Assembly (NCBI RefSeq): GCF_009914755.1
Contig: NC_060926.1
DNA length: 64,000 bases
From: the human T2T-CHM13v2.0 reference genome, Homo sapiens
Direction: 5' to 3' (one strand)
Below, in pieces: positions 27,100 through 44,389 of the stretch; position 1 is the first letter of the stretch, and each line of letters opens with the position of its first letter. The notes under the pieces were generated by a model, which made no database searches, was not told the DNA's origin, and saw only the letters and a program-made list of their open reading frames with translations. The position numbers and the translations under genes were made by a program.

Positions 27100-28660
27100 G
27101 AACTGAGGGGGCCCAAAATCATCTCGGGCAACACCACCCGTTTATATCGTAATAGCGCAAGACTCCGGCGCCCGAATCACCCAGAGAGCCGACTGGCCGA
27201 GCCGGGGCCCAGCCACCCAGGCCGCCACTCTTCGCTGATTCTCAAGAGTTGCGGGTGCAATGAGATCTGGTCCACTGCTTTTTAAATGCCCCGGGTGCAT
27301 AAAAATTCGCCTTACTTAGAGCCTTGGGGACGAAGATTTATCCATGGTATAAAAGGATGCACCTTTTGAAACCACAAAAGTAGAAAATGGAGAAACTGAA
27401 CACAGTCGGCGTTATACCAGCGTCCAACAGCAACTTCCTATATATTAGATTTCCAAGGAATAGCGGGGCGGAGGTGCTTGGCCACGACAGGAAAAGGTAG
27501 GGCTCAGGGGTATTGTGACATGCTCCGGAGAAGGGCAGCTTTTCCCTCCCAACGGAAGCCCGAGCCCAGAGGGGCGAGGGTGTCGGGCCGGACATGGAGC
27601 AGCGGCCTGGGGCCCAGCCCTGCAGGGCACCCCAGGAGAGGAAGGCGGAGGCGCAGCCACAGGCCCCGGCCCAGTCTGTCGAGGGCCACGGCCAGGTGCT
27701 GCTGATCAGCGGGCTCTGGAAGCAGGATGAGGACGGCCTGAGCCTGCAGAGCTTTCCAGGAGACACTGCAGCCGATCAGCTCCCCAGGCCCTCGTCCGCC
27801 CGAGCCATGAGCGGCCACACCAGCGCCAGCAACTGCACCGCACGGCGGTCCAAGCGCTGGGGCGACAGCTCCATGAACTGCGACGACTGCCCGGCCACGA
27901 AGTCCAAGCGCTTCACCAAGAAGTCGCGGCGCTCGGAGCCCAAGGCCGAGGACCCGCGCGAGGCGCCAGGGGCTCCTCCTGGGACCCCCACCTCCGCGGC
28001 AGAGGACACAGCGTCTGCACGCGGGGCACCGCAGCACCCGCCTGAGCGGGGCGCGCAGCTGCTCCTGGTGTTGTGCCGCGCGTCTGCGCTCCTCACGCAG
28101 CTGCTGCGGCTGCAGCTGCTCCTGCAACAGCAGCACGCCCGGGACCGACGTCCGCCCGCCGCGCTCGTGGGGATCGTGGTGCAGCCGCAGCAGGAGGAGG
28201 AGGCCGAGGCGCGCCGCCGCATGGAGGCCCTGCTCAGCCGAGTCCTCGCGCCGCACAGCCCAGCCGTGGAGGTGCACACGGCCGTGTTCTGCCCCGGCCG
28301 CCCCGAGGGCACCCTGGACTTCCAAGCGCGCCGCCAGCAAGTGCACAGGGTCTCCCTGATGGATCGGGAGACGCAGACCGATGGTGAGGGGTCGGCGCGG
28401 GGAGGGGGGAGCCCCGGGGCGGAGAACGCTCAAACACGCAGCCCTGGACCCCGACCCTGCCGCCCCGCGGGGTAGAGGACAAAGCCCCGGAGTCACGGCC
28501 TCTCTCCTGGCGCCTCCAGGAGTTTTGGGTACTGTTTTGGGTGGTAAGGAACTAGAGTTCCTCCCGGTGTGCTCACTGGGGCAATCTCAGCGTCAGAGGT
28601 GTTCGAATTAATTCGGAGGGCTACGACCCCCACTCACTGGCCCCACATGCAACTTGGGGC
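27100..28660. promoter_or_regulatory. CpG island / candidate promoter of the C2orf72-like exon
   Basis: Dense CpG, GC-rich, not repeat-derived; TATATATT at 27439, GC box GGGGCGGAG at 27465. Confidence 0.8.
27594..28383 (+). CDS. Candidate first coding exon of a C2orf72 (DUF4630)-like paralog; 263 codons to a phase-1 donor (unspliced ORF 293 aa, to 28475)
   Basis: Strong Kozak GACATGG; open frame; motifs GQVLLISGLW, LLLVLCRAS, AALVGIVV, MEALL, AVFCPG match C2orf72 as recalled; donor ATG|GTGAGG. Confidence 0.65.
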
Positions 28661-33311: not shown

Positions 33312-33881
<570 letters not shown>

Positions 33882-37490: not shown

Positions 37491-38258
<768 letters not shown>

Positions 38259-39900: not shown

Positions 39901-40069
<169 letters not shown>

Positions 40070-42181: not shown

Positions 42182-44178
42182 CATCACCACTACTACCACC
42201 ACTGTCAGCACCATCACCATTATCACCATCATCCTCATCACCATCACCATCCTCATCACCATCCTCACCATCATCACCACCATCATCACCATCACCATCA
42301 TCACCATCATCATCACCACCACCACCATCACCATCATCACCACCACCATCATCACCATCACCATCCTCATCACCATCACCATCATCACCACCACCATCAT
42401 CATCACCACCACCACCATCACCATCACCATCACCATCATCACCATCATCATCACCATCACCATCTTCACCATCACCATCATCACCACCATCATCACCATC
42501 ACCATCACCACCACCATCACCACCATCATCATTACCATCATCACCATCACCATCATCATCACCATCACCACCACCATCACCACCATCATCATCACCATCA
42601 TCACCATCACCATCATCACCATCACCACCACCACCATCATCACCACCATCACCACCACCATCATCACCACCACCACCAGTATCACCATCATCACCACCAC
42701 CACCACAATCACCACCATCACCACCACCACCACCACCACCATCATCACCACCACCACCATCACCACCATCATCACCACCACCACCATCACCACCACCACC
42801 ATCATCACCACCATCATCACCACCACCACCATCACCATCATCATCACCATCACCACCACCACCATCATCACCACCACCATCACCATCATCACCACCACCA
42901 TCATCACCACCACCATCACCATCATCACCACCACCATCACCATCATCATCATCATCACCACCACCACCATCATCACCACCACCACCATCATCACATCACT
43001 ATCATCACCACCACCATCACCATCATCATCACCATCACCATCATCACCATCACCATCACCACCATCAACATCACCATCATCACCATCATCACCACCATCA
43101 TCACCATCACCATCACCACCATCATCATCACCATCACCATCATCATCATCACCACCATCATCACCACCATTACCATCATCATCACTATCACCACCACCAC
43201 CATCACCATCACCACCATCACCATCACCACCACCACCATCACCATCACCACCACCACCATCACCATCATCACCACCACCACCATCACCATCACCACCACC
43301 ACCACCATCATCACTACCACCACCACCATCATCACCACCATCATCACCACCATGACCATCGTCACCACCACCATCATCACCACCATAATCACCACCACCA
43401 TCATCACCGTCACCATCATCACCACTACCATCACCACCACCACCACCATCACCACCACCATCATCACCATCATCATATCACCATCATCATCATCACAACC
43501 ACCATCATCACCACCACCACCATCACCACAACCATCATCATCATCATCACCACCACCACCATCATCACCATCATCATCACCATCACCATCATCATAACCA
43601 TCACTATCACCACCACCACCACCATCACCACCACCATCACCATCATCACTGCCATCATCACCATCACCATCATCATCACCACCACCATCACCACCACCAT
43701 CACCACCACCACCACCACCACCACCATCACCATCACCATCACCACCACCACCATCACCATCATCACCGCCATCATCACCATCACCATCACCACCACCATC
43801 GCCATCATCACCGCCATCATCACCATCACCATCACCACCAGCATCACCATCATCATCACCACCACCATCACCACCACCATCACCATCATCACCGCCATCA
43901 TCACCACAACCACCATCATCACCATCACCATCATCATCACCACCACCATCACCATCATCACCCACCATTACCATCATCACCGCCATCATCACCATCACCA
44001 TCATCACCATCATTACCACCATCACCATCAGCATCGCGATCATCATCACCATTATCACCACCACCATCATCACCATCATCATCACCATCATCATCCTCAC
44101 CATCACCATCATCACCATCATCATCATCACCATCATCACCATCACCATCAACATCACCATCACCATCACCACCACCAC
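42182..44178. repeat. ~2 kb imperfect (CAC/CAT)n trinucleotide tract
   Basis: Directly visible; phase slips near 42993, 43477 and 43961. Confidence 0.98.
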
Positions 44179-44389
44179 CTACCTCTATCACCAGGCCCTG
44201 CACCTGGCAATTCTGCACATCCCTTCAATTAATCTTTACAACCATCACCCTTGGAGGTAGTTGTCATCAACACCATTATCATCATCATGATAATCATTAC
44301 CATTTGTTAAATCAGTGTTCCCCTAATTTTACTGACTTTTGATACCTGTAAAATCACTTAATATTTTTCTTTAAATTTGCTTACTTTTT

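What the first reader, a model, noticed from the sequence alone, without database searches (positions are those of the whole stretch)
27594..28475. Apparently unannotated C2orf72 (DUF4630)-like coding exon upstream of SPATA3
Seen: strong-Kozak ATG in a CpG island, 293-codon open frame and a good phase-1 donor (ATG|GTGAGG) after codon 263. From recall of C2orf72, colinear blocks match: GHGQVLLISGLW~GRGQVLLVGELW, LLLVLCRASAL~LVFVLCRASSL, AALVGIVV~AALVGVLV, RMEALLSRVL~LLEALLRAVF, AVFCPGRP~AAYCPGLP. C2orf72 is the next gene downstream (recall), so this looks like a tandem paralog in a region I recall only as SPATA3-AS1.
Basis: partly seen in the sequence, partly recalled or inferred. Interest (0 to 1): 0.85.

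Follow-up and report, generated by a model that had tools for sequence, protein, structure and literature searches.

The report
SPATA3 exon 1bis, a C2orf72 paralog
The open frame is the human copy of an already published alternative first coding exon of the testis gene SPATA3, and it is a fast-evolving duplicate of the first exon of the neighbouring, uncharacterised gene C2orf72.

Summary
ATG 27594 has a strong Kozak context in a CpG island, the frame stays open for 293 codons, and a phase-1 donor follows codon 263 (28383|28384).

The exon is not new. It is SPATA3 "exon 1 bis" (Girault 2021, PMC7920483). Spliced to SPATA3 exons 2 and 3 it gives an open 355-aa frame. That length matches a published 355-aa variant, and the frame aligns without gaps to a 355-aa colobus model. 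Only the RefSeq table supplied with the finding lacks it.

The C2orf72 likeness is real homology: profile comparison gives probability 99%, E 7e-18, and the intron phase is the same. It covers exon 1 only, and the human sequence itself scores below the Pfam DUF4630 cut-off (21 against 25 bits). Seventy-four mammalian homologues keep the frame.

New here:
- 13 of 74 homologues join the exon directly to SPATA3 exon 3, read in the other frame. This gives a hydrophobic C-terminal tail.
- The human version of that product is 301 aa.
- That frame is better conserved than the canonical SPATA3 frame (77% against 58%).
- A similar tail ends two monotreme C2orf72-like proteins.

I could not test human transcription or translation, and no fold could be predicted. 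Function is unknown.

The parts
27450..28650 (.). CpG island that holds the exon; probable alternative promoter region
   Evidence: GC 0.68-0.74 in 300-base windows. GC 0.695 and CpG o/e 0.75 over 1201 bases. That it acts as a promoter is inferred, not tested.
27512..27532 (+). Human counterpart of the mouse CRISPR guide site that Girault 2021 placed 'upstream exon 1 bis'
   Evidence: Single match in the window with 3 mismatches; 0 of 100 shuffles give a match. Guide sequence taken from PMC7920483 section 12.
27520..27705 (+). Upstream ATG and 61-codon ORF, out of frame with the main ATG and overlapping it
   Evidence: ORF list. In the mouse and gerbil models the matching ATG is in frame and gives a 25-aa N-terminal extension (P0052, P0069).
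27594..28383 (+). SPATA3 exon 1bis, coding part: 263 codons plus 1 base; C2orf72-like domain
28158..28331 (+). Stretch matched by Pfam DUF4630 (profile positions 2-60), 21 bits, below the 25-bit cut-off
   Evidence: Six-frame genome search with PF15443.
28326..28343 (+). Probable compensated +1/-1 frameshift on the human lineage (residues 245-250)
   Evidence: The neighbouring frame of the human DNA reads the four residues that the mammalian consensus has at this spot. Inferred from proteins; no primate DNA was available.
28384..28389 (+). Splice donor GTGAGG, phase 1
   Evidence: The exon-end residues T260, Q261 and D263 are nearly invariant.
28384..28475 (+). Intronic read-through tail of the 293-codon ORF; not coding-like
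   Evidence: GC by codon position 0.80/0.87/0.73. No conservation beyond the donor.
37636..37807 (+). SPATA3 exon 2 (172 bases, phase 1 in, phase 2 out), joined to exon 1bis in the 355-aa isoform
   Evidence: Hub table. An open 1068-base frame results. 13 of 74 homologues show this junction.
39954..40069 (+). SPATA3 exon 3, read in two frames: the canonical SPATA3 frame (stop ends at 40059) and the exon-2-skipped frame that encodes a hydrophobic C-terminal tail (stop 40067-40069)
   Evidence: Exon 1 + exon 3 gives 138 aa, as for the cloned human isoform cited in PMC7920483.

Best explanation
Window 27594-28383 is the human ortholog of SPATA3 'exon 1 bis'. This is an alternative first coding exon, probably driven by its own CpG-island promoter, and it lies 5.8 kb upstream of the classic SPATA3 start. 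Its phase-1 donor fits the phase-1 acceptors of SPATA3 exon 2 and exon 3. Two long products are therefore possible. Exon 1bis-2-3 gives 355 aa and ends in the Cys-rich SPATA3 C-terminus. Exon 1bis-3 gives 301 aa; because exon 2 (172 bases) is skipped, exon 3 is read in the other frame and ends in a hydrophobic, tail-anchor-like segment. The 263 residues of exon 1bis are a diverged duplicate of C2orf72 exon 1. They keep four hydrophobic strand-like blocks with helix-like segments between them, so I infer an alpha/beta domain. They also carry a basic, Ser-rich insert of about 100 residues where C2orf72 has an Ala/Gly-rich linker. The most likely working model is a spermatid protein whose C2orf72-like domain faces the cytosol. 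It would be held on an internal membrane by the tail (301-aa form) or be soluble or nuclear (355-aa form). Shown here: the exon, its phase, the open spliced frames, the homology and the conservation. Inferred: promoter use, splicing and translation in man, the fold, membrane anchoring, and any biochemical activity.
For: Identity with the published exon:
- The spliced frame 27594-28383 + 37636-37807 + 39954-40059 is 1068 bases, or 355 aa. It aligns without gaps to the 355-aa Piliocolobus model at 314 of 355 identities.
- It shares its last 92 aa with canonical SPATA3, as Girault 2021 states for isoform 3.
- PMC12284469 mentions a 355-aa variant that uses an upstream exon.
- The mouse guide placed 'upstream exon 1 bis' matches uniquely at 27512-27532.

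Coding and conserved:
- 74 homologues at E<=1e-3; every one that carries a source name is from a placental mammal.
- Human keeps the consensus residue at 60 of 63 columns that are at least 90% conserved.
- Coding-type GC periodicity stops at the donor.
- Human-macaque differences avoid conserved columns: 6 of 99 against 32 of 164, one-sided p 0.0016.

Paralogy with C2orf72:
- BLASTP E 9e-6 and 7e-5, colinear.
- hhalign of 73 orthologues against C2orf72 exon 1: probability 99.0%, E 6.6e-18, 185 columns.
- Family against family: 99.1% and 99.2%.
- 45 of 73 orthologues hit DUF4630 at E<=0.01.
- Both exons end in phase 1, 15-19 residues after the last aligned block.
- The two groups separate with 100% SH-aLRT.

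Tail form:
- 13 of 74 homologues join the exon to exon 3 in the tail frame: 10 NCBI models and 3 ORFs on contigs of 1.07-2.9 kb, which must be spliced.
- The human tail frame is open and 84% identical to the badger tail, E 5.7e-17.
- The human 301-aa product aligns nearly end to end with the 304-315-aa models.
Against: - No human transcript, ribosome or peptide data could be examined. The supplied RefSeq table has 13 SPATA3 transcripts and none starts upstream of 33391.
- The human sequence fails the Pfam cut-off.
- ORF length alone is unremarkable for this GC content: 60 of 2000 shuffles reach it.
- Exon 1bis evolves fast. It is 226 of 263 (86%) identical to colobus, against 88 of 92 (96%) for exons 2-3. 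Mean pairwise tree distance is 1.03 against 0.35 for C2orf72.
- On the human branch, replacements are not depleted in conserved columns: 5 of 99 against 13 of 164, p 0.26. On the macaque branch the figures are 1 of 99 against 13 of 164, p 0.011. The two branches do not differ significantly (p 0.20), and one of the five human changes returns to the consensus.
- Human-specific P171L, L180Q and the scrambled residues 245-250 hit conserved positions.
- The upstream ATG at 27520 is out of frame in man.
- 40 of 74 homologues are read-through ORFs that say nothing about splicing.
- No structure could be predicted, so the fold and the mechanism are inference.
Confidence: 0.85

Rival explanations
1. 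The exon is a real, conserved coding exon in other mammals, but the human copy is a relic. It is open by luck, little or not transcribed from the + strand or not translated, and is drifting.
For: - No RefSeq transcript covers it (hub table).
- The Pfam score is below the cut-off, and lower than in monkeys: 21 bits against 23-25.6.
- Human-branch changes are not depleted at conserved columns: 5 of 99 against 13 of 164.
- Human-specific P171L, L180Q and a local frameshift pair.
- The upstream ATG is out of frame.
- An ORF this long arises in 3% of shuffles.
Against: - The frame is intact over 263 codons, with the donor and both acceptors intact.
- 60 of 63 highly conserved columns are kept.
- The frameshift pair restores the frame within 18 bases, which fits selection for the frame.
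- The human and macaque branches have similar numbers of changes, 18 against 14, and do not differ in where they fall, p 0.20.
- Girault 2021 states that isoform 3 is present in humans.
Confidence: 0.12
2. It is an independent gene, a stand-alone tandem paralog of C2orf72, with its own 3' end. The joins to SPATA3 exons would then be artefacts of gene prediction.
For: - 40 of 74 homologues are unspliced read-through ORFs, among them a mouse protein listed from six sources.
- In echidna a related protein is annotated as a locus of its own.
- Rabbit's copy is named C2orf72 by NCBI.
Against: - The read-through tail is neither conserved nor coding-like.
- 26 of 74 homologues splice to SPATA3 exon 2 or 3, with conserved junctions.
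- 3 tail-type ORFs sit on contigs of 1.07-2.9 kb, too short to hold the intron.
- The phase matches both acceptors.
- No C2orf72-like exons 2 or 3 are in the window.
- The join is published.
Confidence: 0.03
3. It is a chance open frame in a GC-rich island, and its likeness to C2orf72 comes from shared Ala/Leu/Arg-rich composition.
For: - 3% of shuffles reach the ORF length.
- Long ORFs also lie on the other strand.
- Both proteins are compositionally biased.
Against: - 74 homologues with conserved blocks.
- hhalign probability 99%.
- Codon-position GC periodicity.
- The other weak DUF4630 genome hits give no tblastn match at all, whereas this one does.
Confidence: 0.005

Closest known systems
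SPATA3 'exon 1 bis' / isoform 3 (Girault et al. 2021, PMC7920483); the 355-aa human variant mentioned in PMC12284469
   Same: Same place relative to SPATA3, same phase, same 92-aa shared C-terminus and same 355-aa length. The mouse guide site maps just upstream of it.
   Different: Nothing differs; it is the same object. [quoted passage not shown] They do not mention C2orf72 or a direct exon 1bis-to-exon 3 product.
C2orf72 (Pfam DUF4630, PF15443), the next gene downstream
   Same: Colinear homology over C2orf72 residues 14-198. The intron has the same phase at the matching position. Same strand and adjacent. C2orf72 is itself uncharacterised and is listed among proteins co-precipitating with CD81 (table in PMC6053247).
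   Different: About 30% identity. The human exon is below the Pfam cut-off. There is no match to the part of DUF4630 encoded by C2orf72 exons 2-3. The linker is basic and Ser-rich rather than Ala/Gly-rich. It evolves about three times faster. The C-termini differ: 0 of 120 placental C2orf72 proteins have a hydrophobic tail.
Monotreme C2orf72-like proteins: echidna LOC119928654 isoform X2, and platypus 'C2orf72 homolog isoform X1'
   Same: A C2orf72-like domain followed by a C-terminal hydrophobic tail. The tail's best match in the 64-kb window is exon 3 in the tail frame: 65-70% over 23 aa, E 4e-6 to 1e-5 without composition correction.
   Different: The match is not significant once composition is corrected (E 2.5). 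Domain identity to the human exon is low, and the deep branching is unresolved (support 32).
Shared exons read in two frames, such as CDKN2A (p16INK4a/ARF) exon 2. Recalled from general knowledge; no call.
   Same: One downstream exon yields two unrelated C-termini, depending on upstream splicing.
   Different: Here the frame is set by inclusion or skipping of exon 2, not by the choice of first exon. Selection on both frames has not been shown at the DNA level.

Membership tests
DUF4630 / C2orf72 family (Pfam PF15443) | Score at or above the curated cut-off of 25 bits | tested here: not met
   Human: no hit at E<=10 in hmmscan, and 21 bits, E 0.6, in the six-frame genome search. Orthologues: 45 of 73 hit at E<=0.01. 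Of the 18 scanned singly, 13 reach 25 bits or more, 4 score 21.5-24.2 bits, and 1 has no hit at E<=0.01.
DUF4630 / C2orf72 family (Pfam PF15443) | Homology to the C2orf72 exon-1 domain by profile comparison | tested here: met
   hhalign probability 99.0-99.2%, E 7e-18 to 1e-19, over 176-185 columns. BLASTP gives two colinear segments.
DUF4630 / C2orf72 family (Pfam PF15443) | C-terminal half of the model (positions about 74-155; C2orf72 exons 2 and 3) | tested here: not met
   No convincing tblastn match in the window. Pfam matches of orthologues stop at profile position 64-70. hhalign alignments end at C2orf72 residue 196-198. The 3 models with full coverage are chimeras that use C2orf72's own exons.
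DUF4630 / C2orf72 family (Pfam PF15443) | Same intron phase and position after the domain | tested here: met
   Both exons end one base into a codon, 15-19 residues after the last aligned block.
SPATA3 gene (alternative first exon 'exon 1 bis') | [quoted passage not shown] | tested here: met
   1068-base open frame; 355 aa; no gaps against the 355-aa colobus model. Text of PMC7920483 and PMC12284469.
SPATA3 gene (alternative first exon 'exon 1 bis') | Match to Pfam SPATA3 (PF15662) | tested here: inconclusive
   The exon itself has no match. Long orthologous isoforms match profile positions 96-191 through exons 2-3 only: 13 of 73.
SPATA3 gene (alternative first exon 'exon 1 bis') | Human mRNA that joins the exon to SPATA3 exons | not testable with these tools
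   No human transcript data are on hand. Girault 2021 says isoform 3 is present in humans, citing databases. The RefSeq table supplied lacks it.
Tail-anchored membrane proteins | One hydrophobic segment at the extreme C-terminus | tested here: met
   Human tail frame: the best 19-residue Kyte-Doolittle mean is 1.78, with 11 residues after it. 13 of 74 homologues pass the same kind of test. TMHMM predicts a helix in the cloned exon 1 + exon 3 isoforms, which share this tail (PMC12284469).
Tail-anchored membrane proteins | Post-translational insertion into a membrane, with the N-terminal domain in the cytosol | not testable with these tools
   PMC12284469 reports that GFP fusions of the exon 1 + exon 3 isoforms shift towards the cytoplasm. 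No membrane assay exists.
Dual-coding (overprinted) exon | Both frames open and used in mRNAs | tested here: met
   Both frames of exon 3 are open. Exon 1 + exon 3 gives 138 aa, as for the cloned isoform. 13 tail-frame and 13 SPATA3-frame long models exist.
Dual-coding (overprinted) exon | Purifying selection on each frame | tested here: inconclusive
   Human against non-primates: tail frame 314 of 407 (77%), SPATA3 frame 176 of 306 (58%). The species sets differ and only proteins were compared; no codon-level test was possible.

The most novel reading that the evidence does not exclude
The oldest and most constrained product of the SPATA3 locus is not the textbook 192-aa SPATA3. It is a tail-anchored C2orf72-like protein made of exon 1bis plus exon 3 in the exon-2-skipped frame, and its domain-plus-tail layout predates the split between monotremes and therians. 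The classic SPATA3 exon 1 and exon 2 would then be later additions that overprint the tail exon in another frame. The phenotypes of the full-locus mouse deletion (detached acrosomes, retained lipid droplets) would then owe much to loss of this membrane-anchored form.
Probability: 0.4. Interest if true: 0.55.

Novelty: already known. Interest (0 to 1): 0.3.

Why it matters
- Annotation. The supplied human RefSeq set omits 263 codons that NCBI and Ensembl models carry in many other mammals and that are in print as part of SPATA3. Girault 2021 proposes screening infertile men for SPATA3 variants. A screen based on that RefSeq set would miss this exon.
- Knock-out design. Deleting the classic exon 1 leaves the exon 1bis products intact, as Girault found.
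- Biology. SPATA3 was said to have no recognisable domain. Exon 1bis gives it one, a paralog (C2orf72, itself uncharacterised) and a likely membrane-anchored isoform. Findings on either gene can therefore inform the other.
- Exon 3 read in two frames is a small, tidy case of overprinting.

None of this would surprise a specialist much.

Tried and rejected
- C2orf72 exons 2 and 3 searched against the window by tblastn: only chance-level hits. The best was E 0.008, on the wrong strand.
- A tail-like or SPATA3-exon-2-like exon near C2orf72: no hit at E<=5 in 35 kb, from the window's end to 10 kb past C2orf72. A duplication of a whole domain-plus-tail gene is therefore not supported in man.
- Homology of SPATA3 exons 2-3 to C2orf72 exons 2-3: the profile alignments stop at the end of exon 1. 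A shared start of the two third exons, seen by eye, was not borne out.
- The other weak DUF4630 hits in the genome (chr14, 16, 11, 5): no tblastn match to either protein, so they are spurious.
- A wider family link: a profile search of 1.84 billion representatives found 172 proteins. Of the 134 new ones, 87 carry DUF4630, 3 carry SPATA3 and 1 has a marginal BPS1 hit.
- Solved structures by sequence: 0 hits for the exon 1bis profile and one chance hit (E 0.7) for the C2orf72 profile.
- Atlas search: only C2orf72 clusters.
- Relaxed constraint in man: suggestive at most.
- Structure prediction: not accepted at four tries, so there was no fold and no fold search.
- Zhou 2019 is not held.
- The bacterial promoter scan is irrelevant to a human locus.
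- Sperm proteomics papers name SPATA3 but do not separate isoforms.
- Literature checks: SPATA3 + C2orf72 gave 1 paper, a dog GWAS seen only as a search listing. DUF4630 gave 0. SPATA3 + tail-anchored gave 0. SPATA3-AS1 gave 5, none relevant judging by listing.
Full report
**Observation**

The + strand ORF 27594..28475 (293 aa) is present as described. The ATG has G at -3 and G at +4. It sits in a 1.2-kb island with GC 0.695 and CpG observed/expected 0.75. After codon 263 the sequence reads GAT G|GTGAGG, so the exon ends at 28383 in phase 1.

Length alone is weak evidence: 60 of 2000 dinucleotide-preserving shuffles of the island give an ATG-ORF at least as long. The codon-position GC content is more telling. 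It is 0.74/0.55/0.87, the same shape as in C2orf72 exon 1 (0.88/0.64/0.94). It changes to 0.80/0.87/0.73 in the 90 bases after the donor.

**Likeness to C2orf72**

I took C2orf72 from the same genome at the place the hub table gives.
- BLASTP of the ORF against C2orf72 exon 1 gives two colinear segments: 40% over 93 aa (E 9e-6) and 38% over 32 aa (E 7e-5).
- The direct Pfam test fails for the human sequence. There is no DUF4630 hit at E<=10. In a six-frame search of the genome with PF15443 the exon scores 21 bits (E 0.6) against a 25-bit cut-off. It ranks fifth, after the three C2orf72 exons and a chr14 hit.
- That chr14 hit and three other weak hits show no tblastn likeness to either protein, so they are spurious.
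- C2orf72 exon 1 also ends in phase 1, 15 residues after the last aligned block; here it is 19 residues.

**What it is**

A search of 5.8 billion proteins found 74 homologues. Every one that carries a source name is from a placental mammal, and many are named 'spermatogenesis-associated protein 3'.

I sorted them by what follows the conserved exon end (with for two tails that the pattern missed):

| What follows the exon end | Homologues (of 74) |
|---|---|
| SPATA3 exon 2 | 13 |
| SPATA3 exon 3, read in another frame | 13 |
| Read-through into the intron | 40 |
| C2orf72 exons 2-3 (Ensembl chimeras) | 3 |
| Ends before the exon end | 2 |
| Other | 3 |

In the human window, 27594-28383 + 37636-37807 + 39954-40059 is an open 1068-base frame of 355 aa. 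It aligns without a gap to the 355-aa Piliocolobus model at 314 of 355 identities.

This is already in print.
- Girault et al. [quoted passage not shown] - 355 minus 263 is 92.
- One of their guides 'targeting upstream exon 1 bis' matches the window once, at 27512-27532, with 3 mismatches; 0 of 100 shuffles give a match.
- PMC12284469 (passages and reference list read) mentions a reported 355-amino-acid variant that uses an upstream exon and skips exon 1. The reference it gives is the 2001 genome paper, which points to a database entry.

So the exon is 'unannotated' only in the RefSeq table supplied with the finding.

**Homology at family level**

- A profile of 73 orthologues against C2orf72 exon 1 gives hhalign probability 99.0%, E 6.6e-18, over 185 columns.
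- Twelve tail-type and 13 exon-2-type long isoforms against 35 full-length C2orf72 proteins give 99.1% and 99.2%. The alignments cover C2orf72 residues 14-198 only and stop at the end of exon 1.
- 45 of 73 orthologues hit DUF4630 at E<=0.01, and 13 of 73 hit Pfam SPATA3. The SPATA3 hits come through exons 2-3.
- In a tree of 20 + 20 sequences the two groups separate with 100% SH-aLRT. The exon 1bis group is about three times more divergent, with mean pairwise distance 1.03 against 0.35.
- The window holds no counterparts of C2orf72 exons 2 and 3.

Girault et al. wrote that no functional domain could be predicted. I found no paper that links the two genes:
- SPATA3 + C2orf72: 1 paper, a dog GWAS seen as a listing only.
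- DUF4630: 0 papers.

The link is implicit in database labels: one beaver long isoform is named 'C2orf72-like C-terminal domain-containing protein'.

**Second product and a two-frame exon**

The 13 tail-type homologues end in a conserved hydrophobic stretch. They comprise 10 NCBI models from carnivores, rodents, bats and a dugong, and 3 ORFs on contigs of 1.07-2.9 kb. Those contigs are too short to hold the intron, so I take them to be transcripts.

- The tail maps to window 39953-40066, which is SPATA3 exon 3 read one base out of the canonical frame. It is 84% identical to the badger tail, E 5.7e-17.
- Exon 2 is 172 bases long, so skipping it shifts the frame.
- Human exon 1bis + exon 3 gives 301 aa and aligns nearly end to end with the 304-315-aa models.
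- Classic exon 1 + exon 3 gives 138 aa. That is the length of the cloned human exon-2-skipped isoform cited by Girault, for which PMC12284469 reports a TMHMM helix.
- The best 19-residue hydropathy mean of the human tail is 1.78, with 11 residues after it.
- Over the same DNA, the human tail frame is 68-86% identical to 11 non-primate tails (314 of 407 pooled). The human SPATA3 frame is 47-68% identical to 9 non-primate sequences (176 of 306 pooled). The species sets differ and only proteins were compared, so this is an indication, not a test.

**Older relatives**

A profile search of 1.84 billion representatives found 172 proteins at E<=1e-3.
- Of the 134 new ones, 87 carry DUF4630 and 3 carry SPATA3. 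The only other family hit is one marginal BPS1 match at E about 1e-3.
- Seven of the 134 have a hydrophobic C-terminal segment, against 0 of 120 placental C2orf72 proteins.
- Two named monotreme proteins, echidna LOC119928654 isoform X2 and platypus 'C2orf72 homolog isoform X1', end in a tail of the same kind.
- Within each monotreme species, two different N-terminal domains carry a letter-identical tail.
- Searched against the window, these tails hit exon 3 in the tail frame first: 65-70% over 23 aa, E 4e-6 to 1e-5. With composition correction the E-value is 2.5.
- Deep branching in the tree is unresolved, with support 32.
- No tail-like exon lies in the 35 kb around human C2orf72.

**Is the human copy still under constraint?**

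For:
- Human keeps the consensus at 60 of 63 columns that are at least 90% conserved. The exceptions are P171L, F218L (shared with the two Old World monkeys) and A246R.
- Human-macaque differences avoid columns conserved in 67 non-primate homologues: 6 of 99 against 32 of 164, p 0.0016.
- Residues 245-250 differ from all other species. The neighbouring frame of the human DNA reads the consensus residues there, which fits a +1/-1 indel pair that restored the frame within 18 bases.

Against or neutral:
- On the human branch, 5 of 99 conserved columns changed against 13 of 164 others (p 0.26). On the macaque branch it is 1 of 99 against 13 of 164 (p 0.011).
- The two branches do not differ significantly (p 0.20), and one human change returns to the consensus.
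- Branch totals are 18 (human) and 14 (macaque).
- Exon 1bis is 86% identical to colobus, against 96% for exons 2-3.
- The upstream ATG at 27520 is out of frame in man but in frame in the mouse and gerbil models.

No human expression data could be examined.

**Mechanism**

Shown: an alternative first exon whose phase fits two downstream acceptors, two open long products, a C2orf72-type domain, and a tail-anchor-like end in one product.

Inferred:
- The island acts as a second promoter.
- The domain is alpha/beta, judging from four hydrophobic strand-like blocks separated by helix-like segments.
- The 301-aa form sits on an internal membrane of spermatids with the domain in the cytosol.

Girault's full-locus deletion, which removes exon 1bis to exon 3, gives detached acrosomes, retained lipid droplets and poor IVF. 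Their knock-out of classic exon 1 alone was fertile in vivo. This is compatible with a role for the exon 1bis products, but it does not single them out.

C2orf72 itself is uncharacterised and is listed among proteins co-precipitating with CD81.

**Verdict**

The exon is real and coding, but it is already known as SPATA3 exon 1bis. The C2orf72 paralogy is correct and, by my searches, not in print, though it is modest news. The most interesting leads are the tail-anchored product and the better conservation of the tail frame of exon 3.

Noticed in passing
window 27520-27705 (+): An upstream ATG opens a 61-codon ORF that overlaps the main ATG out of frame. In the mouse and gerbil models the matching ATG is in frame and adds 25 residues. 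If the human transcript starts upstream of it, it would act as an overlapping uORF.
   Followed up: partly
window 28326-28343 (+): Human residues 245-250 differ from all 73 other sequences. The adjacent frame of the human DNA reads the mammalian consensus, which suggests a compensated +1/-1 frameshift on the lineage to man.
   Followed up: partly
window 39954-40069 (+): SPATA3 exon 3 is open in two frames. The non-canonical, hydrophobic-tail frame is the better conserved at protein level: 77% against 58% to non-primates.
   Followed up: partly
window 42205-44179: A 2-kb minisatellite in a SPATA3 intron, period 12/15/27 and about 134 copies of a 15-base unit. Its reverse strand reads as Gly/Asp runs and produced spurious tblastn hits.
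   Followed up: no
window 33588-33691 (+): A 27-base repeat, 3.9 copies, in classic SPATA3 exon 1. This is the repeat that Girault 2021 describes as a 2- or 3-copy polymorphism rather than alternative splicing.
   Followed up: no
proteins P0027, P0070, P0071: Three Ensembl-derived models (marmot, ground squirrel, mink) join exon 1bis to C2orf72 exons 2-3 across the whole SPATA3 gene. They are probably chimeric predictions, and they inflate DUF4630 scores for 'SPATA3'.
   Followed up: partly
protein P0032: NCBI names the rabbit exon 1bis read-through protein 'uncharacterized protein C2orf72', although it belongs to the exon 1bis group. This is a naming mix-up between the paralogs.
   Followed up: no
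window 27852-27911 (+), residues 87-106: In the otherwise variable linker, a Lys-Arg pair and a Lys-Ser-Lys-Arg cluster 14 residues apart are nearly invariant across 73 orthologues. They resemble a bipartite nuclear localisation signal. C2orf72 lacks them.
   Followed up: no
proteins P0267, P0297, P0331, P0332: In each monotreme species, two different C2orf72-like N-terminal domains carry a letter-identical hydrophobic tail. This would be expected from alternative first exons spliced to one shared last exon.
   Followed up: partly
L007 (chr14), L009 (chr16), L010 (chr11), L011 (chr5): Weak six-frame hits to Pfam DUF4630. One, at 26 bits, is nominally over the cut-off but contains a stop. None shows any tblastn likeness to C2orf72 or exon 1bis, so they are spurious GC-rich matches.
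   Followed up: yes
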